Assembly: GCA_022750115.1 (NCBI GenBank)
Contig: JAKIWI010000004.1
Location: 97,939 to 161,938 of the forward strand
Direction: 5' to 3'
From: Thermoplasmata archaeon
GTDB lineage: Archaea; Thermoplasmatota; Thermoplasmata; Lutacidiplasmatales; UBA184
DNA length: 64,000 nt
Made by a program: the position numbers and the translations under genes. Under the pieces are notes generated by a model, which saw only the letters and a program-made list of their open reading frames with translations, was not told the origin of the DNA and searched no databases. Positions 2,058-46,314 of the stretch are shown one piece after another; positions within the stretch are counted from its first letter, which is position 1, and every line of letters starts with the position of its first letter.

Positions 2058-2140
2058 CGGGCGGCGACCGGGCGGGTGTACTTACCCGCGCGCCGCCGTA
2101 CGGCCGTCAACCCTATCCGCTAAGAACCGGTCGAACGCCC

Positions 2141-37798: not shown

Positions 37799-38010
37799 GC
37801 GTCCTTGCGCGCATCCGGGCCGGGCGCGTCGACCTCGAGGACCAACGAGCCGACGTAGTCGCAGTTCAGGCAGTGGTAGACCTGCCCGGTGATCAGCCCG
37901 GCCTCGAAGACCAGCCGGTCCGACTGGCACTGCGGGCAGAGCTTGACCTGCTTACGGAGGGGCCGGCGCTTCGTCGTCGTCCTCCTCGTCCGATTCCGCC
38001 GACGGCACCG
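37798..38010 (-). other. start-less zinc-ribbon ORF, out of frame behind gyrA (possible frameshifted C-terminal extension or recoded mini-gene)
   Basis: Stop-to-stop frame encodes '[58 protein letters not shown]' with no ATG/GTG/TTG before the CPQC motif; begins inside the (GAC/GAA)n acidic tail of gyrA. Confidence 0.35.
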
Positions 38011-40573
38011 TCACTTCGTCCGGCCCGTCGTCGTCCCCCTCGTGGGGGGGCGGGGATGCGTCCGCTCCGCCCGTCGGCGCTTCGCCCTTCTCCGCGCCGT
38101 TCCCGTCGAGGCCGGCCGGCAGGACCAGGGCGTCCTTCACCGTGTCGCCCTCATCCAGGCGCATCACCCGGACGCCCATCGTGTTGCGGCCCTGGGCGCG
38201 GATCCCGTGGACGGCCATCCGGATCGTGATCCCCCGCTGGGTCGTGACGAGGATCTCGTCGTCCTCGCCGACCGGGAGGACGGCGATGACGCCGCCGTTG
38301 CGCCCACCCGTGCGGATGGTCCGGACGCCCTTCGCCCCCCGGCGCGTCTCGCGGTAGTCCGTGGTCAGCGATCGCTTGCCGAACCCGGTCGAGGTGATCG
38401 TGAGGAGGAACGGCCGCTCGCCGCGGACGGGCGCCATCGTGACGACGTGGTCGCTCCCGTCCGTCTCGAGCCGGGCACCGATGACCCCGTAGGCGGCGCG
38501 TCCCATCTCGCGCACCTCGGTGATCGGGAACCGCACCAGCTGGCCCGCGTGCGTCGCGAGGATCATCTCCTTGTCCTCCGGGTCGACGAGCGCAACGTCG
38601 ACCAGCTCGTCGCCGTCGTCGAGGAGCACCGCCTGGATGCCGTTCGTCCGGATGTTCTGGAACATCTCGAGGCTGGTGCGCTTGACGATCCCCTTGCGGC
38701 TTCCGAACAGGATCCCGCCGGCTTGCTCCATGTCGCGGAGCGGCAGCAGCGTCTCGACTTTCTCCCCGTCCTTCAGCTTCGGCAGGAGGTTGATCACCGC
38801 CTTCCCTTTCGAGTGGCGGCTCCCTTCCGGGAGCTCGTAGGCCTTCAATCGGTAGACCCGGCCGAGGGTCGTGAAGAACAGCACGTTGTCGTGCGTCCGG
38901 GTGACGAACGTCTGGATGACGTAGTCCTCCTCCTTCGTCTCCATCTGGACGAGGCCGCGGCCACCGCGGCGTTGCCGCCGGTACTGCTCGAGCGGCAGGC
39001 GCTTGATGTAGCCGTCCCGGGTGACGAGCACGACGACGTCGGTGTCGGGGATCAGGTCCTCGAGCGTCCGCTCGGTGAACTCCGGGACGATCACCGTCCG
39101 GCGCGCGTCGCCGAACTTCTGCTTGAGCTCCTTCAGCTCGGCGTCGATGAGGAGGTCGAGCTCCTTCGGCGAGGCGAGCACCTCCTTGAGGCGCTTGATG
39201 AGCGCCTCCTTTTCCGCCGCCTCCTTCTGGACGGATTCCCGCTCGAGCGCCGTGAGGCGCGCGAGGCGCATGTCGAGGATCGCCTTCGCCTGCTCGACCG
39301 AGAGCAGGAACTTCCCCATCAGCGACTGCTCGGCCGCGGGCACGTCCTTCGAGCGCCGGATGATCCGGATCACCTCGTCGATGTGGTCGATCGCGGTGAG
39401 GAATCCTTCGAGGAGGTGGAGCCGTTCCGTCGCCTTGCGCAGATCGAACTCCGAGCGGCGCGTGAGGATGTGGCGGCGGTGGGCGAGGTGCGCTTCGAGG
39501 AGCGCCTTGAGCGAGAGCACCCTCGGCTGGCCGTCGACGATGCAGAGATTGATCACGCCGAAGCTGGTCTCGAGCGGCGTGTGCTCGTAGACCCGGTTGA
39601 GCACGATCTCGGCCGGGGCGTCGCGGCGCAGCTCGAGGACGACCGAGGTGCCGTGTCGGTCGGACTCGTCGCGGAGGTCGGTGATGCCATCGATCCGCTT
39701 GGTCTTGACGAGGTCGGCGATCAGCTGGAGCAGCGTCGCCTTGTTGACCTCGTAGGGGATCTCGGTGATCACGATCTCCGTGCGGCCATCGCGCTCGCGC
39801 GGCTCGGCCTTGCCGCGGAGGCGCAGCGTGCCACGGCCGGTCTCGTAGGCCTCGCGGATCCCGGTGGACGCGGCGAGGTAGCCTCCCGTCGGGAAGTCGG
39901 GGCCTGGGAGGACGGCCATCAGTTCGTCGAGGGTCGCCTGGGGGTTCCACAGGACGAGCGTGAGCGCGTCGACGACCTCGGAAAGGTTGTGCGGCGGCAT
40001 GTTCGTCGCCATGCCGACGGCGATCCCGGACGAGCCGTTGATCAGAAGGTTCGGGACCTTCGAGGGGAGGAGGAGCGGTTCCTTGAGCGAGCCATCGAAG
40101 TTGTCGCCCCAGCTGACGGTCTCCTTCTCGATGTCCTGGAGCATCTCTTCCGCGAGGAGCGAGAGGCGCGCCTCCGTGTACCGCATCGCGGCGGCGGTGT
40201 CGCCATCGATCGAGCCGAAGTTCCCCTGGCCGTCGATGAGCGGGTAGCGGAGCGAGAACGTCTGCGCCATCCGGACCAGCGCGTCGTAGACGGAGAGGTC
40301 GCCGTGCGGGTGGTACTTCCCGAGGACATCTCCGACCGTCCTCGCGGACTTTCGGAACGGCTTGTCGTGGGTCGCCCCCGACTCCCACATCGACCACAGG
40401 ATGCGGCGGTGGACCGGCTTCAGCCCGTCCTGGATGAACGGGAGCGCCCGGCCGATGATCACGCTCATCGCGTAATCGATGTACGATCGGTGCATCTCGC
40501 GCTCCACCGAGTGGTCGCGGACGCGTTCCACCGGGGGCGCGACGGGCGGCGCGCTTTCGGCGGGGCTCGTCAT
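37952..40573 (-). CDS. gyrA: DNA gyrase subunit A
   Basis: '[30 protein letters not shown]' catalytic-Tyr region; C-terminal beta-pinwheel; acidic tail '[11 protein letters not shown]'. ATG at 40573 overlaps the stop of the upstream DHH gene (ATGA). Confidence 0.9.
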
Positions 40574-41964
40574 GCGGCGACCTCGGTTCGGGGGAGCTGC
40601 TCGGCGACGATCCGGTTCGTCTCCTCGAGGAATTTCGGTCGGCCCTCGGTCGGGATCGTGGCGCCGCTCGCGACCTTGTGGCCGCCGCCCTCCCCGCCCA
40701 CGGCAGAGGCGGCCGCTCGCAGGGCGACCGCGAGGTCGAGGCCCCGCGAGACGAGCCACGTCGTCCCGCGGCCGGACACCTTCCAGACCCCCTGGCCAGC
40801 GGAGAAAACGACGAGCGGTCGGGTCGGGTCGACGAGGTAATTCATCGCGAGGCCTGCCTGGGTCCCAGCGTACGTCGTCTCGGCGCTCTCGAACCACTGG
40901 ATGGCGGAGAGGGAGTTAACCCCCCCGTCCTCGACGCGCCGCATCCCCGTGAGGATCGCGGTCCGCCACGCGTTCTCCGCGCGCCGCGCCGCGTCCCATG
41001 CGCTCGGGTCGCCGAGCGCGAGCGCGATGCCCCGGCCCGGCTCGGCCGCGCGCCCGAGCGCGTTCTGCCAGTTGGAGAGCTCCTCGCCATCGACCCCGAG
41101 GGACGGGAGTCGGTAGCGCTCGCGTCGGAGGCTCTCGAGGAACTCCGGCCGAACCCCCTGCCGGACGAGCTTCGCGAGGAGCGCTTGGTGGAGGCGGCGC
41201 TCGCCGCCGGCATCGAGGCCGCTGGTCTCGTGCTTCGGGTCGAGGTCGATGCTCTGGAGGAAGGCGGTGACCGCCTCGGGGCGGCCCGAAAGCCCCTTGA
41301 CAAACGGGTCGATCGAGCGCGTCACGGCCTCGCCCAGGGTCGGTCCGAAGAGGGCGAGCCCGGGCCGCTTCTGGATCAGCGAGCGCTGGACCGCCTCGTT
41401 GACGAGCGTCGCGTTCAGCCCGGAGAACCCGCCGACGTGCTGACGGTCGGCGATGCCGCCGGAGAGACCCCACGGCGCGTTGTCCCAGTTGACCGGGTCG
41501 ACGAACACGCTGAACAACCAGCTGAGCGTCGCGGCGCACATCTCCCGCATGCCGTCGACGCCCCAGTCGACGGGGTTGACGAACGCGACATGGGCGGGAA
41601 GCTCCGGAGGTCGCGGGGCACCCTCGTACTGGTGGTGGTCGAGGACGATGACCGGGTGCGGGTGGGGAGGATACAGGTCAAGCCAGCTCGCCCCGGTGTC
41701 GACGACGATCACGGGTCCGTGGGTCCCCTGGAGGAGCGTGTGCATCCGCTCGCGCTCCACGCCCTGGAGCGGAGTGGCGTACGGCGGGTAGCCGAGGCGC
41801 TCGAGCATCCGGACGAGCGAGCACGCGCTCGCGATCCCATCGCCGTCGTAGTGGTAGATGACCCGCCAGCGGCCCGGGTGCGCCAGCAGGACCTCGCGGG
41901 CTTTCGTGAACTCCCGGCCGTACGCCGGGTCCGAGACGAAACCGTCGGGCCCCGAGGGCATCAC
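40570..41964 (-). CDS. DHH/DHHA1 phosphoesterase, archaeal RecJ-like (GAN/aRecJ family)
   Basis: '[16 protein letters not shown]' DHH motif, C-terminal '[13 protein letters not shown]' DHHA1; ATGA overlap with the rps15 stop. Confidence 0.75.
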
Positions 41965-42416
41965 TCCACCTGGAGCACCGCGCTGGCGGACGTGTACCGC
42001 CAGTCCTCCGGGAGGACCTTGTGGCGCTTGTAGTAGAGCGCGAGACGCCGGATCCGCGCCTCCATCAGGTTGAGCCCACGGCGGTTCGCGAGGTCCTTCT
42101 TGTGGACGCCGAGATGCCGTTGGAGGTGAACGACGCGCTTGAGGAGCGCCTGGAGATCCTCGGGGAGATCCGGCTTCACGCCCTGGCCGGCCAGGAGCGG
42201 GGTCATCCGCTCCCCGGTGACGGCGCGGACCGATGGGACGCCGTGCGAATCGCGGAGAATCATGCCGACCTGCGCGGACGGGATACCGGTCTTCGCGAGG
42301 CGGACCGCCTCCTCGATGACCTCGGTCTTGTCGAGGGTGGCGAACGCCGGGGGTCGGATCGGGTAGGGCTTGTGGGAGCCCGCGCGACCCTTCCGCCCGG
42401 AGTGAATTCGGGACAC
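41961..42416 (-). CDS. rps15: 30S ribosomal protein S15P/S13e
   Basis: 'SRIHSGRKGRAGSHKPY' N-term and S15 C-terminal helices; GTG at 42416 preferred (TATA ~25 bp upstream) over the listed 42428. Confidence 0.8.
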   Translation of the reverse strand: MSRIHSGRKGRAGSHKPYPIRPPAFATLDKTEVIEEAVRLAKTGIPSAQVGMILRDSHGVPSVRAVTGERMTPLLAGQGVKPDLPEDLQALLKRVVHLQRHLGVHKKDLANRRGLNLMEARIRRLALYYKRHKVLPEDWRYTSASAVLQVE

Positions 42417-42433
42417 GGGCGCGACCACCCGGG

Positions 42434-42448
42434 TGGCCTACTTAACGG
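42434..42448 (-). promoter_or_regulatory. TATA box for rps15
   Basis: Minus strand reads 'ccgTTAAGTAGGcc' ~25 bp upstream of GTG 42416. Confidence 0.45.
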
Positions 42449-42486: not shown

Positions 42487-42828
42487 TCAGCGGATGCGTT
42501 CCGCCGTCTGGATCGAGTCCACGAGGAACTTCTTTCCTTCGGGCGTGATCAGATACCGTTGGGCCGCGGCCCGTTGGCGCTGCCACGAATAATCGGGCAT
42601 CCCCGCGGCGGCGACCAGGCCATTGCGGAGCAGCAGGCCGAGGGCGAGCCCGACCTTCACCGAACCGTTATCGATCGCCCAGAAGTCGGAAAGTCGCCGC
42701 TCGATCTCCGGGAGTTCGAGCGATTGGTCGGCGAGCGCCCCCTCGTGGACCGTCTCGGCCTGGTTGAGCTGCTTCAGGATGGCGATCAAGGTCGCGCGGA
42801 CGGGGTCGTTCTTCGGCGCGCCGCTCAT
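42487..42828 (-). CDS. small conserved hypothetical protein (113 aa), paralog 1
   Basis: Shares 'IL..LK.LNQAE...LEL.E.ER..S.FW....ALLLL.NGLV....Y.W.R.R....RY..T..GK.FLV....ETERI' with the next ORF. Confidence 0.55.
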   Translation of the reverse strand: MSGAPKNDPVRATLIAILKQLNQAETVHEGALADQSLELPEIERRLSDFWAIDNGSVKVGLALGLLLRNGLVAAAGMPDYSWQRQRAAAQRYLITPEGKKFLVDSIQTAERIR

Positions 42829-42914
42829 CTCGGGAATTTACGCTGGGAAGGGGTACTTACAGTCATCGATTTCGTCTCCACGAAGTCGGCCCCCGGGAAA
42901 CTCCCCGGGACGAC

Positions 42915-43262
42915 TCAGGGGATCCGTTCCGTCTCCACGAGCTGGCGGACGAGGTAGGCCTTCCCGAGCGCCGTGAGCGTGTAGCGGGTCCCGAGCGTCC
43001 TCCGACGATCCCAGGCGTACTCCGGCTCGTCGTTCTCGCGAACGAGGCCGTTCTCGAGGAGGAGGCTGAGCGCCGTCTCGGCCGAGTCGTCCTCGCCCGG
43101 ATGCTGAGTCCAGAACGACCGCATCGACCGCTCTACCTCGACGAGTTCGAGACCCTCCACGGGGGGCGGACGCTCCTGTTCGGCCTGGTTGAGGCGCTTG
43201 AGAACCTCGAGTATCGTCTCGTGGAACCGGTAGGCCGCCTCTTCCGCGCTGACGACCCCCAT
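42915..43262 (-). CDS. small conserved hypothetical protein (115 aa from internal ATG), paralog 2
   Basis: Same motif pattern as 42487-42828. Listed ORF starts at GTG 43328; ATG at M23 gives a matching length. Confidence 0.5.
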   Translation of the reverse strand: MGVVSAEEAAYRFHETILEVLKRLNQAEQERPPPVEGLELVEVERSMRSFWTQHPGEDDSAETALSLLLENGLVRENDEPEYAWDRRRTLGTRYTLTALGKAYLVRQLVETERIP

Positions 43263-43413
43263 CCACCGACGGTACGGCCTTCTTCCAGAAAGAACCGACG
43301 TTGGACCGGGGGGCCGGTCCCAGCCCACAACTGACGGTTCTCTGGGGGGGCCGCCGACCCCAAACGCGCCCCGCGCGACGCCCGACGCGATGCGACGGGG
43401 AGCCGGACGTCGG

Positions 43414-43990
43414 CTACCGGGGTCGGTTCGTCGATTTCGTCCGGGGCCGGAACTCGTTCAGGATGCGTCGGACCATCGGCCGAACCGACCGGAGGGTCCC
43501 GAACCGGTCCGCGAGCGCAACGGCCCCCCCGAGCCATTCCACGGGGGCTCCCTCGTCGAGGTCCCTCCGGATGCGGAGCTCGTACCGACGACCGTGCTCC
43601 CCGCGGACGTGGGGTCGGGTGTAGTCGACGATGGAGGGTCTGGCAACGCGACCCTGGGGCGTGTCCTGGGAACCTTCGGTCGCCACGAACTCGTAGAACG
43701 CCTCACCGCCGAAGGGTGCCGGGCTCCGAACGTCGCGGACGATGGTCCGACCGCCCGCCCGGCGGAGGTGCCCGTTGGTGAAGTGCCCGGGGTTCGAGAG
43801 TACCTCGATTCCGGCGCCGCGCAGAAACTCGACTTCACCGTATTCGGCTTCGGAGAGAACGACGTCGACGTCCTTCGTTCCGCCGAACCCGGCGGTCTCG
43901 ATGGCCAGGCCCCGATCAGGATGGGTTGCTACCCTTCGGCCCGGGGGCGCGCGAGAATCAGTTTCGCATCCTCGGGGGAGGCCCCTGCCA
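43414..43990 (-). pseudogene. protein-like ORF without canonical start; possible degenerate metallophosphoesterase-like remnant
   Basis: About 190 codons of normal composition ('...AIETAGFGGTKDVDVVLSEAEYGEVEFLRGAGIEVLSNPGHFTNGH...') with no ATG/GTG/TTG until GTG at 43686; begins directly after the stop of the 43994-44563 gene. Confidence 0.3.
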
Positions 43991-43993
43991 TGT

Positions 43994-44563
43994 CTACGAA
44001 CCTCGGGAGAATGCCCGGGAGTCCTCCACGGCGAGCGCGGCTGCGGAAAGGGGCTCGATTCCGGGGACTTTCGGAATCCCCGGAGCGAACTCGTCGAGCC
44101 GGACCCCGTAGGCTCGCCCCTCGAGGTCCTCGGCGAGGACTCGCTTCAGGAGGCGAATCGGGTCCAGGTCCCGTCGGTGACCGGAAGCGACACGGCGGGC
44201 GCCGAGCGCATCGATGGACAGCAGAGCGACGATCAGGTCCTCGAGCTTCGGGTCCCGAGCCGCCTCGATATCGGCCATCGGAAGGAGACGGTACGTCGTC
44301 TCGATCAAAGGGACAATCTGCTTCGGGGTCAGCAGCCGGGCCCGGAAGGAGAGTGGGTATCCGAGTTTCTCGATTCGTTCGGATTCGAGGAGGGAGATTG
44401 GAAGGCCGACCCGGCGAGCGGTCTCGACGTCCGTTCTCGAGCGGATCCGAACCGAGCGATACCGAGTCGGAGGTCGGTGCGAAACCCGGGATTCCGCGAT
44501 GAAGATCGACGGTGTCGCCGCTCGTGATCCCGGCTCCCGCCGGAACACTCCCTCGACGAACAT
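43994..44563 (-). CDS. hypothetical protein (189 aa)
   Basis: Genuine ATG at 44561-44563 with an AT-rich TATA-like block ~30 bp upstream (divergent promoter region 44564-44602); protein-like C-terminal two-thirds. Confidence 0.45.
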   Translation of the reverse strand: MFVEGVFRREPGSRAATPSIFIAESRVSHRPPTRYRSVRIRSRTDVETARRVGLPISLLESERIEKLGYPLSFRARLLTPKQIVPLIETTYRLLPMADIEAARDPKLEDLIVALLSIDALGARRVASGHRRDLDPIRLLKRVLAEDLEGRAYGVRLDEFAPGIPKVPGIEPLSAAALAVEDSRAFSRGS

Positions 44564-44602
44564 GCGCCCAGCGTTGCTCCCCTTTGGACCGAGAGTAACT
44601 AT
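44564..44602. promoter_or_regulatory. AT-rich divergent promoter block between the 43994-44563 gene and the 44603-45088 gene
   Basis: 'ttggaccgagagTAACTATATGAactt' is the only AT-rich stretch for hundreds of bp; both flanking genes start at its edges. Confidence 0.4.
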
Positions 44603-45088
44603 ATGAACTTAGCCGGACACTCCAAGAGGATTTCGTCCGAGTCGACGCCCGGCGTACGCCGAGTCTCCCCCGGCGATCTCGGCGGGGTCGCGTGGATGGC
44701 CACGGGCAAGGAACCTGCCGCAAACACGGAGCCGCTCCGAGACGAGACGCTTTATTCACGGCGCTTCGTCGTGGAAGGGATGGCGTGCACGTGCCGGTCG
44801 CCGGCCCGTTGCTCGGTGTGCAACACACCGGTCCGTGTCCCGCTCACCTACCTGGAGAGCGCGACCGGGGGGGCACTCATCGTCGACCGGTTCGCTCGGC
44901 GCGACTCGGCGACGAGCCGCGACGCGCTCTACCGGCTCATGCAGGGGTTCTGCCCGTGTCCCAGTTGCGGGAACACGATTCACCACAACCATAGCCGCAG
45001 TTGCGTTTCGAACGCCCTATCCGCCGCGGGCGTTCCGTCCCAGGAGCGCGAGATGATCCTCGCCAAGATCACCTTCCCGGAAGGGTGA
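44603..45088 (+). CDS. Cys-rich hypothetical protein (putative metal-binding), upstream of trpS
   Basis: 'CTCRSPARCSVCNTP' and 'CPCPSCGNTIHHNHSRSC' clusters; may start at the internal ATG (M32, ~44696); stop 11 nt before the trpS GTG. Confidence 0.45.
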   Translation: MNLAGHSKRISSESTPGVRRVSPGDLGGVAWMATGKEPAANTEPLRDETLYSRRFVVEGMACTCRSPARCSVCNTPVRVPLTYLESATGGALIVDRFARRDSATSRDALYRLMQGFCPCPSCGNTIHHNHSRSCVSNALSAAGVPSQEREMILAKITFPEG

Positions 45089-45099
45089 CGGGACCGTCC

Positions 45100-46314
45100 G
45101 TGCCGGCGAAGGACGACTTCACCGTCACTCCGTACGAGGTCAAGGGACGGATCGATTACGCACGGTTGCGCGAGCTGTTCGGCACGGAGGACCTCACTCC
45201 CGCGCTGCTCGACCGGCTCAAGGCCGCCGCCGGGCGCCCCCTCCCGCCGAGCCTGGAGCGCGGGATCTACTACTCCCATCGTGACCTCGGTCGGATCCTC
45301 GACGCCCACGCCGGGGGCCGCCCGTTCTTCCTCTACTCCGGTCGCGGCCCCTCCGGCCCGGTCCACACATCGCATCTGCTCGCGTTCGAACTCTCGAAGT
45401 GGTTCCAGGAGTCGTTCGGCGCGGAGATGTGGATCCAGATCACCGACGACGAGAAGGTCTGGGCGAAAGGTGACCTTTCGCGGGCCGAGTCGTACCGATG
45501 GGGGCTCGACAACCTCGCCGACTTGCTCGCTGTGGGCTTCGCGCCGGAAAAGACCCACGTGTTCTTCGACACCCGTTCGATCGGGGCGATGTACCCGCTC
45601 GCGGTCGATGTCGCCCGGAAGATCCCGTACTCGACCGTGAAGGCCGTCTTCGGGTTCCCGCCGTCGACGAACGTCGGCCTGGTGTTCTACACCGCGCTCC
45701 AGAGCGTCCCCTGCTTCTACCCGTCGTGGGTCGCCGGACGCGACATTCCGTGCCTCATCCCGTGCGGGATCGACCAGGACCCGCACTTCCGGGTCACCCG
45801 CGACCTCGCCGAACGCCTCGGGTTCCCGAAACCGGCGCTCCTCCACAGCCAGATGACGCCCGGCCTGCTCGGGCCCGACCGCGTGATGTCCACCACCGGC
45901 GACCAGCGCGACAACGCGCTCTTCCTCTCCGACCCGCCGAAAGAGGTCGAGCGGAAGCTGAAGAAGGCGTTCACCGGCGGCCGGGCGACGGTAGAGGAGC
46001 AGCGGCGACTGGGGGCGACGCCCGAGATCTGCTCGGTGTGGGCGCTCTGGCGGTCCCGGTACGCCCCGGAGGCGCCGGAGTTCGACACGATCACGGGGGA
46101 CTGCCGTTCGGGCAAGCTCCTGTGTGGCGATTGCAAGTCGATGCTGATCGAGCGCGTGAACGGCTCGTTCGCGGCGCACGCCGAACGAAAGGCGAAGGCG
46201 AGGGAGTGGGCCGAGTCGCGCATCGTCGAAGCTCTGCCCGACGGCTTCGACCCGCACGCGGTCGTGCCGAGTCGGGGCGGGGAAACCCCGCCGAGCCCGT
46301 CACCGGTCGGCTGA
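45100..46314 (+). CDS. trpS: tryptophanyl-tRNA synthetase (archaeal/eukaryotic type)
   Basis: 'FTVTPYEVKGRIDY', 'GRGPSGPVHTSHLLAFE' (HIGH region), 'VMSTTGD' (KMSKS-like); start set at the first in-frame GTG after the upstream stop (approximate). Confidence 0.85.
   Translation: MPAKDDFTVTPYEVKGRIDYARLRELFGTEDLTPALLDRLKAAAGRPLPPSLERGIYYSHRDLGRILDAHAGGRPFFLYSGRGPSGPVHTSHLLAFELSKWFQESFGAEMWIQITDDEKVWAKGDLSRAESYRWGLDNLADLLAVGFAPEKTHVFFDTRSIGAMYPLAVDVARKIPYSTVKAVFGFPPSTNVGLVFYTALQSVPCFYPSWVAGRDIPCLIPCGIDQDPHFRVTRDLAERLGFPKPALLHSQMTPGLLGPDRVMSTTGDQRDNALFLSDPPKEVERKLKKAFTGGRATVEEQRRLGATPEICSVWALWRSRYAPEAPEFDTITGDCRSGKLLCGDCKSMLIERVNGSFAAHAERKAKAREWAESRIVEALPDGFDPHAVVPSRGGETPPSPSPVG

What the first reader, a model, noticed from the sequence alone, without database searches (positions are those of the whole stretch)
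42487..43262. Tandem pair of paralogous ~115-aa proteins of unknown function
Two adjacent minus-strand ORFs share a distinctive pattern: '...IL.[IE]LK.LNQAE......LEL.E.ER..S.FW.........AL.LLL.NGLV.......Y.W.R.R....RY..T..GK.[FY]LV....ETERI'. They are divergent (about 35-40 % identity) but clearly homologous. Two conserved Trp and a conserved C-terminal 'ETERI' suggest a folded domain, possibly a winged-helix-like regulator or toxin-antitoxin-like pair. I do not recognise the family.
Basis: seen in the sequence. Interest (0 to 1): 0.5.

Follow-up and report, generated by a model that had tools for sequence, protein, structure and literature searches.

The report
Paired divergent PadR-like winged-helix proteins
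Two neighbouring small genes in an uncultured soil archaeon (Thermoplasmata) are old duplicates of a lineage-specific, previously unclassified branch of the PadR winged-helix regulator fold; this is a modest addition to a known kind of protein, not a new kind of system.

Summary
Gene A (42487-42828, minus strand, 113 aa) and gene B (42915-43262, minus strand, 115 aa) are paralogues: 42% identity, E 4e-22, z = 30.7 against shuffles. Both are under purifying selection.

The family is small (about 40 clusters at 50% identity among 1.84 billion proteins) and was found only in Thermoplasmata/Euryarchaeota MAGs. In 62 of 76 informative species loci the order is [TrpRS <- Zn-ribbon] [B -> A -> S15 -> RecJ-like -> GyrA].

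The duplication is old. A is always kept and is near-neutral to basic. B is always acidic, evolves faster and was lost several times. Each gene has its own TATA box about 30 nt upstream of its start, which implies leaderless mRNAs.

Most likely these are dimeric DNA-binding regulators, with B an accessory partner of A. This is inferred, not shown. A toxin-antitoxin reading is rejected.

The parts
42487..42828 (-). Gene A: 113-aa PadR-s2-like winged-helix protein. It is the conserved core paralogue (pI about 8).
42915..43262 (-). Gene B: 115-aa acidic paralogue of A (pI 4.8). It evolves faster and is dispensable in some species.
42838..42861 (-). Promoter of A inside the 86-nt B|A spacer. The TATA-like box TGTAAGTA is at 42854-42861. 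A conserved CGTAA is at 42838-42842. The ATG lies about 30 nt downstream of the box, which implies a leaderless mRNA.
   Evidence: Conserved as TtTAaGTAg..N10..CgTa in 73 loci, 28-32 nt from the start codon. It is a one-mismatch relative of the window's TATA consensus TTAAATAG.
43285..43296 (-). Weak T-rich box (GGTTCTTTCTGG) about 30 nt upstream of the B start; the likely B promoter.
   Evidence: An equivalent but non-canonical box (CTTTTGG, TTCATCT or CTCAAGA) sits at the same distance in orthologous loci. AT-rich window at 43287-43294.
42438..42445 (-). TATA box TTAAGTAG of the downstream rps15 gene, in the 58-nt A|S15 spacer.
   Evidence: Nearly invariant ccGTTAAGTAg in 70 loci, about 30 nt upstream of the conserved M-S-R-I-H-S-G start. 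It is the only TTAAGTA in the 64-kb window.
40570..42428 (-). Conserved downstream neighbours on the same strand: ribosomal protein S15 (41961-42428; the true start is probably the GTG at 42416) and a RecJ/Cdc45-like DHH protein (40570-41964). GyrA (37952-40897) follows.
   Evidence: Pfam hits. Synteny in 75 (S15), 69 (RecJ-like) and 59 (GyrA) of 80 loci. The outgroup loci L088 and L089 show the same order.
44780..46314 (+). Conserved divergent neighbours: a 102-aa Cys-rich Zn-ribbon-like protein (44780-45088) and tryptophanyl-tRNA synthetase (to 46314). In relatives these start only about 90-125 nt from B.
   Evidence: tblastn synteny in 76 and 75 of 80 loci. Pfam tRNA-synt_1b hit. No Pfam or PDB hit for the Zn-ribbon protein.
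43263..44779 (.). Window-specific insertion of about 1.5 kb between B and the Zn-ribbon gene. It is not part of the pair but it splits the ancestral divergent promoter region.
   Evidence: The spacer is about 90-125 nt in relatives and 1517 nt here. ORFs 43414-43686 and 43994-44563 have no counterpart in 80 loci and no Pfam, PHROG or PADLOC hit.

Best explanation
A and B are two members of a lineage-specific, highly divergent branch of the PadR-like winged-helix superfamily. Their architecture is that of PadR subfamily 2: helix a1, a helix-turn-helix, a beta-wing and one C-terminal helix that in PadR-s2 proteins forms the dimer.

The most likely function is sequence-specific DNA binding as dimers to regulate transcription. 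A is the core factor. It is always present, near-neutral to basic, and keeps a conserved N-terminal DPVRAT arm and basic residues K58 and R68 flanking the recognition helix. It can work alone, presumably as a homodimer.

B arose from A by an old tandem duplication. It became acidic and lost those basic residues, but it kept the wing motif Y-A-W-D-R-x-R. It most likely acts as an accessory partner, either forming A-B heterodimers that change or weaken DNA binding, or serving as a second regulator with its own targets.

Each gene is transcribed from its own TATA box as a leaderless mRNA. A has a near-consensus box and B a weak one. Probable targets are local: their own promoters, the divergent Zn-ribbon/trpS promoter and the rps15-recJ-gyrA promoter.

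What is shown: homology, fold, selection, phylogeny, synteny and promoter-like elements. What is inferred: DNA binding, dimerisation, heterodimerisation and the targets.
For: Fold:
- Foldseek TM-scores are 0.57-0.73 to Rv3488, TA0346 and LmrR.
- The secondary-structure order matches the PadR-s2 description in PMC3506622.

Sequence:
- 27 of 49 family members give sub-threshold PF03551 hits. The best is 25.5 bits against a cutoff of 27, covering a2 through the wing.

Transcription-factor-like family behaviour:
- Several paralogue groups sit in different genomic contexts. These include an independent second tandem pair (53% identity) and a TPR fusion.

Pair history:
- The B clade is monophyletic and co-diverges with A.
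- 14 B-less species are nested inside the A clade, and one species has a frameshifted B.
- B is always acidic and A is not.
- Paralogue-specific conserved positions are listed.

Promoters:
- Conserved TATA-like boxes lie about 30 nt upstream of each start codon.
- Unrelated genes are inserted between B and A in 4 species.
Against: - The PadR-s2 residues thought to contact DNA are absent. The Tyr/Gly of YGYE and the Tyr and Arg of the recognition helix (PMC3506622) are replaced by LELPE and by G/L in A, and by LELVE and E/L in B.
- The recognition helix of A is unusually hydrophobic and Gly/Ala-rich. That of B is acidic.
- No ATGT-N8-10-ACAT operator lies near the genes.
- No conserved element was found in the promoters beyond basal promoter elements.
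- The neighbours are housekeeping genes, not the detoxification or efflux genes typical of PadR regulons.
- Heterodimerisation could not be modelled.
- A test for complementary degeneration failed: 10 of 14 B-less species also lack the W.R.R wing motif in A. A therefore does not depend on B for that element.
Confidence: 0.55

Rival explanations
1. Two independent homodimeric regulators. After duplication A and B diverged to separate operators and regulons and do not interact physically. The tandem position is only a historical trace.
For: Each gene has its own promoter-like box. Unrelated genes of 0.6-1 kb separate B and A in L035, L051, L067 and L054. A works without B in 14 species. The putative DNA-facing residues of A and B differ strongly.
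Against: B's recognition helix and helix a1 are acidic and lack basic residues, which is unfavourable for autonomous DNA binding. No locus showed B without A where both could be seen. Core residues of a1 and of the C-terminal helix (L18, L21, N22, L102, R111) are invariant in both paralogues, so a mixed dimer is sterically plausible. A tandem pair arose and was kept a second time in an outgroup lineage.
Confidence: 0.22
2. Not DNA-binding regulators. The winged-helix fold is used as a protein- or RNA-binding adaptor tied to the information-processing cluster it sits in (fibrillarin, S15, RecJ/Cdc45-like, gyrase).
Against: The best structural matches are consistently DNA-binding PadR and MarR regulators. 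Other paralogues of the family sit in unrelated contexts (nuo/GNAT/YjbQ, Mrp-like), as expected for a transcription-factor family. The family is confined to one archaeal lineage, whereas the neighbouring machinery is universal.
Confidence: 0.15
3. Toxin-antitoxin or other defence-type two-gene module.
For: No tool result supports it.
Against: The two proteins are homologous and share one fold. There are no PADLOC or PHROG hits and no phage or plasmid matches. The chromosomal synteny is fixed in about 76 species. The promoters are separate and genes are inserted between the pair. Both genes are under ordinary purifying selection.
Confidence: 0.02
4. Architectural or replication-linked DNA-binding dimer, for example an RTP-like fork-arrest or nucleoid protein, rather than a gene-specific regulator.
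For: Bacillus RTP shares the PadR-s2 architecture of a winged helix plus one dimerisation helix (PMC3506622). AspA, a PadR-like protein that spreads on centromere DNA, is among the hits. The genes neighbour recJ/Cdc45-like and gyrA. A has a near-consensus TATA box.
Confidence: 0.05

Closest known systems
PadR-like regulators, subfamily 2 (LmrR, BcPadR1/2, Rv3488, CdPadR_0991, LftR)
   Different: Lacks YGYE(I/L), EGT(L/I)YPxLxRLE and the Trp of the C-terminal helix. Has its own signatures: LxxLNxAE in a1, LELxE in a2, Y-[SA]-W-x-R-x-R in an extended wing, and a C-terminal [ST]-[DE]-R-[IV]. There is no ATGT..ACAT operator nearby. The neighbours are housekeeping genes, not efflux or detoxification genes. 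It occurs as a conserved paralogous pair.
TA0346 of Thermoplasma acidophilum (PDB 3elk, structural-genomics PadR)
   Different: No significant sequence relationship: the family profile against PDB sequences found nothing below E = 0.9. The function of TA0346 is unknown.
RosR (VNG0258) of Halobacterium salinarum (PDB 6ez1)
   Different: No detectable sequence homology. RosR is a single gene in a different archaeal class.
AspA of Sulfolobus plasmid pNOB8 (PDB 4rs8/5k5o) and viral F-93 proteins
   Same: Small archaeal PadR/MarR-like winged-helix dimers.
   Different: Those are plasmid- or virus-borne and work with ParA/ParB or in viral regulation. A and B are chromosomal, with no match in phage or plasmid collections.
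MarR-family regulators
   Different: MarR proteins are about 140 aa with extra N- and C-terminal dimerisation helices. They rank consistently below PadR hits.

Membership tests
PadR-like subfamily 2 (PadR-s2; definition in PMC3506622) | About 110 aa: N-terminal winged helix-turn-helix followed by a single C-terminal helix | tested here: met
PadR-like subfamily 2 (PadR-s2; definition in PMC3506622) | Pfam PF03551 (PadR) at or above its gathering score of 27 bits | tested here: not met
   Window A and B give no PadR hit even at E <= 10. The best relative, P0039, scores 25.5 bits. 27 of 49 members give sub-threshold hits.
PadR-like subfamily 2 (PadR-s2; definition in PMC3506622) | Motif YGYE(I/L) at the N-terminus of helix a2 (contacts DNA backbone) | tested here: not met
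   The aligned segment is L-E-L-P-E-I in A and L-E-L-V-E-V in B; only E-(I/V) is kept. The register agrees with the Pfam match of P0039 (residue 43 = profile position 17).
PadR-like subfamily 2 (PadR-s2; definition in PMC3506622) | Motif EGT(L/I)YPxLxRLE in recognition helix a3 (Tyr and Arg contact DNA) | tested here: not met
   A has S-V-K-V-G-L-A-L-G-L-L-L-R-N-G (Tyr replaced by G/S/P, Arg replaced by L). B has S-A-E-T-A-L-S-L-L-L-E-N-G (Tyr replaced by E, Arg replaced by L). The alignment is by eye, anchored on the conserved G-L-V, so the register is inferred.
PadR-like subfamily 2 (PadR-s2; definition in PMC3506622) | Motif G(P/R)RKYYx(L/I)TxxG at wing strand b2 | tested here: inconclusive
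   Partly kept: R-Y-x-I-T-x-x-G-K, with Y92, I94, T95, G98 and K99 invariant or nearly so. The GxRK part and the first Tyr are not kept.
PadR-like subfamily 2 (PadR-s2; definition in PMC3506622) | Conserved Trp in the C-terminal helix | tested here: not met
   There is no Trp in residues 96-113 of A or 98-115 of B, nor in the family consensus.
PadR-like subfamily 2 (PadR-s2; definition in PMC3506622) | Homodimer through a4 packing on a4' and a1' | not testable with these tools
PadR-like subfamily 2 (PadR-s2; definition in PMC3506622) | Binds an ATGT-N8-10-ACAT inverted repeat in its own or a neighbouring promoter | tested here: not met
   The only ATGT-N6-12-ACAT in the 64-kb window is inside gyrA at 38652. 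Binding itself is not testable here.
Type II toxin-antitoxin pair | Two unrelated proteins (a toxin fold plus an antitoxin) in one tight operon, patchy and mobile in distribution | tested here: not met
   The two proteins are homologous with one fold. They are separated by an 86-nt spacer with its own TATA box, and other genes are inserted between them in 4 species. The synteny is fixed. No PADLOC, phage or plasmid hits.
MarR family | About 140-aa winged helix with N- and C-terminal helices forming the dimer; Pfam MarR models | tested here: not met

The most novel reading that the evidence does not exclude
B is a built-in dominant-negative partner. It would be an acidic paralogue that has lost the basic DNA-facing residues but kept the dimerisation core, so it would titrate A into heterodimers that bind DNA poorly or bind asymmetric sites. 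In this reading the level of the weakly promoted B gene would tune A-dependent control of the flanking housekeeping promoters (trpS, rps15-recJ-gyrA). From my own knowledge, such a decoy-paralogue switch resembles Id/HLH proteins in eukaryotes and has not been described for PadR-like proteins or for archaeal regulators in general. Its independent recurrence as a second tandem pair in an outgroup lineage would suggest a general design.
Probability: 0.15. Interest if true: 0.55.

Novelty: new variant of a known kind. Interest (0 to 1): 0.3.

Why it matters
If the inference holds, this adds an unclassified, lineage-restricted branch to the PadR/MarR winged-helix world. The branch has replaced the canonical DNA-contact residues and has twice been fixed as a tandem paralogue pair.

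It would be a tractable case for studying how a homodimeric archaeal regulator evolves into a two-subunit system. The material is well suited to that: core A, acidic accessory B, and natural 'knock-outs' of B in 14 species.

It also gives functional leads for genes wedged next to rps15-recJ(Cdc45-like)-gyrA in the abundant but uncultured soil Lutacidiplasmatales. The practical gain now is annotation: about 40 clusters (at 50% identity) of 'hypothetical proteins' can be labelled PadR-like winged-helix proteins. Nothing here overturns current understanding.

Tried and rejected
- Pfam, NCBIfam, PHROGs and PADLOC scans of A and B: no significant hit.
- Family profile against PDB sequences: nothing below E = 0.9.
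- Rfam and tRNA scans of the window: nothing.
- Foldseek against afdb50: library not available.
- Metagenome scan with the 10-sequence outgroup alignment: no conserved stretch. It succeeded with 5 sequences but gave only 4 loci.
- Search for the canonical PadR operator ATGT-N-ACAT, and for short inverted repeats around the genes: nothing relevant.
- Idea that TTAAGTA, shared by the A and S15 promoters, is a specific operator: rejected. It is a one-mismatch variant of the window's TATA consensus TTAAATAG, which is 8-fold... present 8 times against 1.6 expected. It sits at the TATA position about 30 nt from the start codons, and the outgroup S15 promoter has TTAAATAG.
- Idea that the conserved CGTA at about -14 in the A promoter is an operator half-site: left open, but probably a promoter-proximal element. 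GTA/GTC occurs at the same place in the Zn-ribbon and S15 promoters.
- Complementary-degeneration test (B-less species should keep the W.R.R wing in A): failed. Only 4 of 14 singles keep it, against 21 of 62 paired A proteins.
- Terminal repeats around the 1.5-kb insertion: none convincing.

Full report
**1. What is there**

The window is a 69.5% GC stretch of an uncultured Thermoplasmata archaeon. Protein B is identical to NCBI entry L3K18_04760, annotated 'Thermoplasmata archaeon'. Close relatives include Candidatus Lutacidiplasma silvani, a member of the soil order Lutacidiplasmatales described in PMC9287336.

Two minus-strand ORFs occupy the flagged interval. A is 42487-42828 (113 aa). B is 42915-43262 (115 aa from the ATG; orthologue lengths of 111-116 aa support this start over the upstream GTG at 43328). 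Both have the GC3 >> GC1 > GC2 pattern of real genes in this genome, with GC3 of 0.86 and 0.83.

**2. Is the similarity real**

- BLASTP of A against B gives 42% identity over 101 residues, E = 4e-22.
- The Smith-Waterman score is 175, against 27.2 +/- 4.8 for 2000 shuffles (z = 30.7).
- Among close orthologues dN/dS is 0.09-0.19 for A and 0.07-0.26 for B.

Both genes therefore encode proteins under purifying selection.

**3. Family and distribution**

A has 181 relatives in the 5.8-billion-protein collection. Those that carry a source name are called Thermoplasmata archaeon, and almost all are annotated 'hypothetical'. B has fewer word-sharing relatives.

A profile of both paralogues, searched against 1.84 billion cluster representatives, found only 44 clusters at E <= 0.001. 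One of these is a false positive caused by a repeat. This is a small, lineage-restricted family.

A scan of one genome per GTDB species gave 77 loci. All but one are titled Thermoplasmata (one is titled Methanobacteriota archaeon), and all come from soil, peat or sediment MAGs. There are no matches in the phage or plasmid collections.

**4. Fold**

AlphaFold2 with family alignments gave:

| Protein | pLDDT | pTM |
|---|---|---|
| A | 78 | 0.73 |
| B | 87 | 0.80 |

Both models have a long helix a1, a helix-turn-helix (a2, a3), a beta-hairpin wing with an extended loop, and one C-terminal helix.

At the sequence level, 27 of 49 family members give sub-threshold hits to Pfam PadR. The best is 25.5 bits against a gathering score of 27, covering a2 through the wing. 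The window proteins themselves give none.

**5. Membership against resemblance**

PMC3506622 defines PadR subfamily 2 by these features:
- a size of about 110 aa;
- a winged helix plus a single dimerising C-terminal helix;
- the motifs YGYE(I/L), EGT(L/I)YPxLxRLE and G(P/R)RKYYx(L/I)TxxG;
- a Trp in the last helix;
- ATGT-N8-10-ACAT operators.

A and B meet the architecture and keep part of the third motif (RYxITxxGK). They have LELPEI/LELVEV in place of YGYEI. The a3 Tyr is replaced by Gly (A) or Glu (B), and the a3 Arg by Leu in both. There is no Trp in the last helix. No ATGT..ACAT repeat lies near the genes.

I therefore describe them as a divergent PadR-s2-like family, not as PadR members. 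Their own signatures are LxxLNxAE in a1, LELxE in a2, Y-[SA]-W-x-R-x-R in the wing loop, and a C-terminal [ST]-[DE]-R-[IV].

**6. Genomic context**

The following order is kept across the 80 related loci:

[TrpRS <- 102-aa Zn-ribbon-like protein] [B -> A -> ribosomal protein S15 -> RecJ/Cdc45-like DHH protein -> GyrA]

| Gene | Loci with the gene (of 80) |
|---|---|
| Zn-ribbon protein | 76 |
| TrpRS | 75 |
| S15 | 75 |
| RecJ-like | 69 |
| GyrA | 59 |

Shortfalls are mostly due to contig ends. Of the 77 species loci, 62 show both B and A, 14 show A only with a short Zn|A spacer, and one is cut by a contig end. The B-stop to A-start spacer has a median of 60 nt.

In four species an unrelated gene lies between B and A: a metallo-beta-lactamase-fold protein or a small membrane protein. 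In this window a 1.5-kb insertion separates B from the Zn-ribbon gene.

**7. History of the pair**

In a neighbour-joining tree all B proteins form one clade whose branching mirrors the A clade. The 14 single-copy proteins are nested at several places inside the A clade. The simplest reading is one old tandem duplication followed by several losses of B. One species (L061) carries a frameshifted B.

B evolves faster: mean pairwise identity is 46%, against 56% for A. B is acidic in every species (pI 4.65-6.12, net charge -1 to -10). A averages pI 7.9, and the single-copy proteins average 8.5.

Column by column:
- A keeps a strictly conserved N-terminal D-P-V-R-A-T arm, plus K58, G64 and R68 around a3.
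- B has acidic residues in a1 and a3 but keeps the wing residues Y82, W84, R86, R88 and R93 almost invariantly.

An outgroup clade keeps both sets of features. I tested whether the two paralogues degenerated in a complementary way, which would force them to act together. The test failed. Ten of the 14 B-less species also lack the W.R.R wing motif in A. A does not need B.

**8. Wider family**

The outgroup clade (MAGs titled 'Euryarchaeota archaeon' and relatives) shows several arrangements:
- a single member directly upstream of S15-RecJ-GyrA, with fibrillarin on the other side (L089, L088);
- an independent tandem pair (53% identity), followed by a 70-aa membrane protein, next to Mrp/Nuo-type genes (L090, L081);
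- a further paralogue near GNAT, YjbQ and the nuo operon (L091, L082);
- a fusion of the domain to a long TPR protein (P0173).

Multiple paralogues in different contexts are what one expects of a transcription-factor family. They argue against a dedicated subunit of a housekeeping machine.

**9. Promoters**

The window's AT-rich intergenic boxes define a TATA consensus TTAAATAG. With at most one mismatch it occurs 8 times, against 1.6 expected; 0 of 100 shuffles reach 8.

| Gene | Box | Position and conservation |
|---|---|---|
| A | TGTAAGTA (42854-42861) | First A of AAGTA lies 28-32 nt from the ATG in 70 of 73 loci (TtTAaGTAg-N10-CgTa) |
| S15 | ccGTTAAGTAg | About 30 nt before the conserved M-S-R-I-H-S-G start; nearly invariant in 70 loci |
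| Zn-ribbon | CTTTTAG-type (GCTTTATTCAC here) | Same distance |
| B | CTTTTGG, TTCATCT or CTCAAGA (TTCTTTCT here) | Same distance; deviant box only |

From established knowledge, archaeal TATA boxes are centred about 26-27 nt upstream of the transcription start. These distances therefore imply leaderless mRNAs and separate promoters for B, A and S15, with B's promoter probably the weakest.

I found no conserved element beyond these basal features. No operator can be named.

**10. Interpretation**

Shown:
- homology of A and B, and that both are real genes;
- the PadR-s2-like fold;
- restriction to one archaeal lineage;
- an old duplication with repeated loss of B;
- the charge asymmetry between A and B;
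- fixed synteny;
- promoter-like boxes upstream of each gene.

Inferred:
- the proteins are dimeric DNA-binding regulators (probability about 0.55-0.6);
- B acts with A, most simply as a heterodimer partner that modifies or dampens DNA binding (about 0.35 within that);
- the targets are local promoters.

The loss of canonical PadR DNA contacts, and the hydrophobic or acidic 'recognition' helices, are the main reasons for caution. They keep a non-DNA adaptor role alive as a rival (about 0.15). The toxin-antitoxin idea is rejected.

**11. Verdict**

This is a genuine, conserved paralogous pair from an unclassified divergent branch of the PadR-like winged-helix fold. It is a new variant of a known kind and useful for annotation. 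It offers a neat natural experiment in regulator duplication but is not a surprising system. Interest 0.3.

Noticed in passing
window 43263-44779: A 1.5-kb insertion splits the ancestral divergent promoter region between B and the Zn-ribbon gene, which is about 90-125 nt in relatives. It holds two orphan minus-strand ORFs (43414-43686, 90 aa; 43994-44563, 189 aa, GC3 only 0.76) with no Pfam, PHROG or PADLOC hit and no counterpart in 80 related loci. The most AT-rich 18-mer of the window (AGTAACTATATGAACTTA, 44594-44611) sits just upstream of the 189-aa ORF. No terminal repeats were found. L019 has a different insertion (a methyltransferase) at the same spot.
   Followed up: partly
window 44780-45088 (+): A 102-aa Cys-rich (CxC...CxxC...CxCxxC) Zn-ribbon-like protein lies immediately upstream of, and co-oriented with, tryptophanyl-tRNA synthetase. 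It is conserved in 76 of 80 loci and has no Pfam or PDB sequence match. It is an uncharacterised conserved partner of trpS. The ORF listing over-extends it to 161 aa (start 44603).
   Followed up: partly
window 42416-42428 and 42438-42445: The mechanical start of rps15 (GTG at 42428) is probably wrong. The conserved N-terminus M-S-R-I-H-S-G and the TATA box TTAAGTAG 30 nt upstream point to the second GTG (42416) and a leaderless mRNA. The S15 stop overlaps the start of the RecJ-like gene (41961-41964), which suggests an rps15-recJ-gyrA operon.
   Followed up: partly
window 2079-2084, 42439-42444, 42854-42859: TAAGTA occurs only three times in 64 kb (0.7 expected). Each copy is about 25-30 nt upstream of a gene start: a GNAT acetyltransferase, S15 and gene A. 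The A-to-G variant of the TATA consensus (TTAAGTA instead of TTAAATA) is kept at the A and S15 promoters across about 70 species, whereas the outgroup S15 promoter has TTAAATAG. Whether the G matters is unknown.
   Followed up: partly
L090 4548-5712; L081 1-1099: An independent tandem pair of the same family (135 + 133 aa, 53% identity), followed by a 70-aa predicted membrane protein, lies next to Mrp/Nuo-type antiporter genes in an outgroup 'Euryarchaeota archaeon' lineage. That lineage also has a third copy upstream of S15.
   Followed up: partly
P0173 (L084 48-1865) and P0179: The family domain also occurs as the C-terminal 110 residues of longer proteins. One is a 605-aa protein with many TPR repeats; the other is 198 aa and shares a KK-x-LxxWLE N-terminal region.
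   Followed up: no
L061 5612-5992: B is disrupted by a frameshift in this species (two HMM fragments) while A is intact. This looks like a B loss caught in progress.
   Followed up: no
L044/L067, L070/L073, L028/L080: Three MAGs each contain two diverged copies of the whole TrpRS-B-A-S15-RecJ-GyrA locus on different contigs. This suggests that two related populations were binned together.
   Followed up: no
L035 4951-5955, L051, L067: A gene of about 330 aa for a metallo-beta-lactamase-fold protein (HxHxDH motif) is inserted between B and A in one subclade. The A promoter box is retained downstream of it.
   Followed up: no
window 40570-41964 (-): The RecJ-like protein has DHH and DHHA1 domains plus a weak DHH-CID hit, the domain typical of Cdc45/GAN-type archaeal RecJ homologues. 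It is fixed next to rps15 and gyrA in all lineages examined.
   Followed up: no
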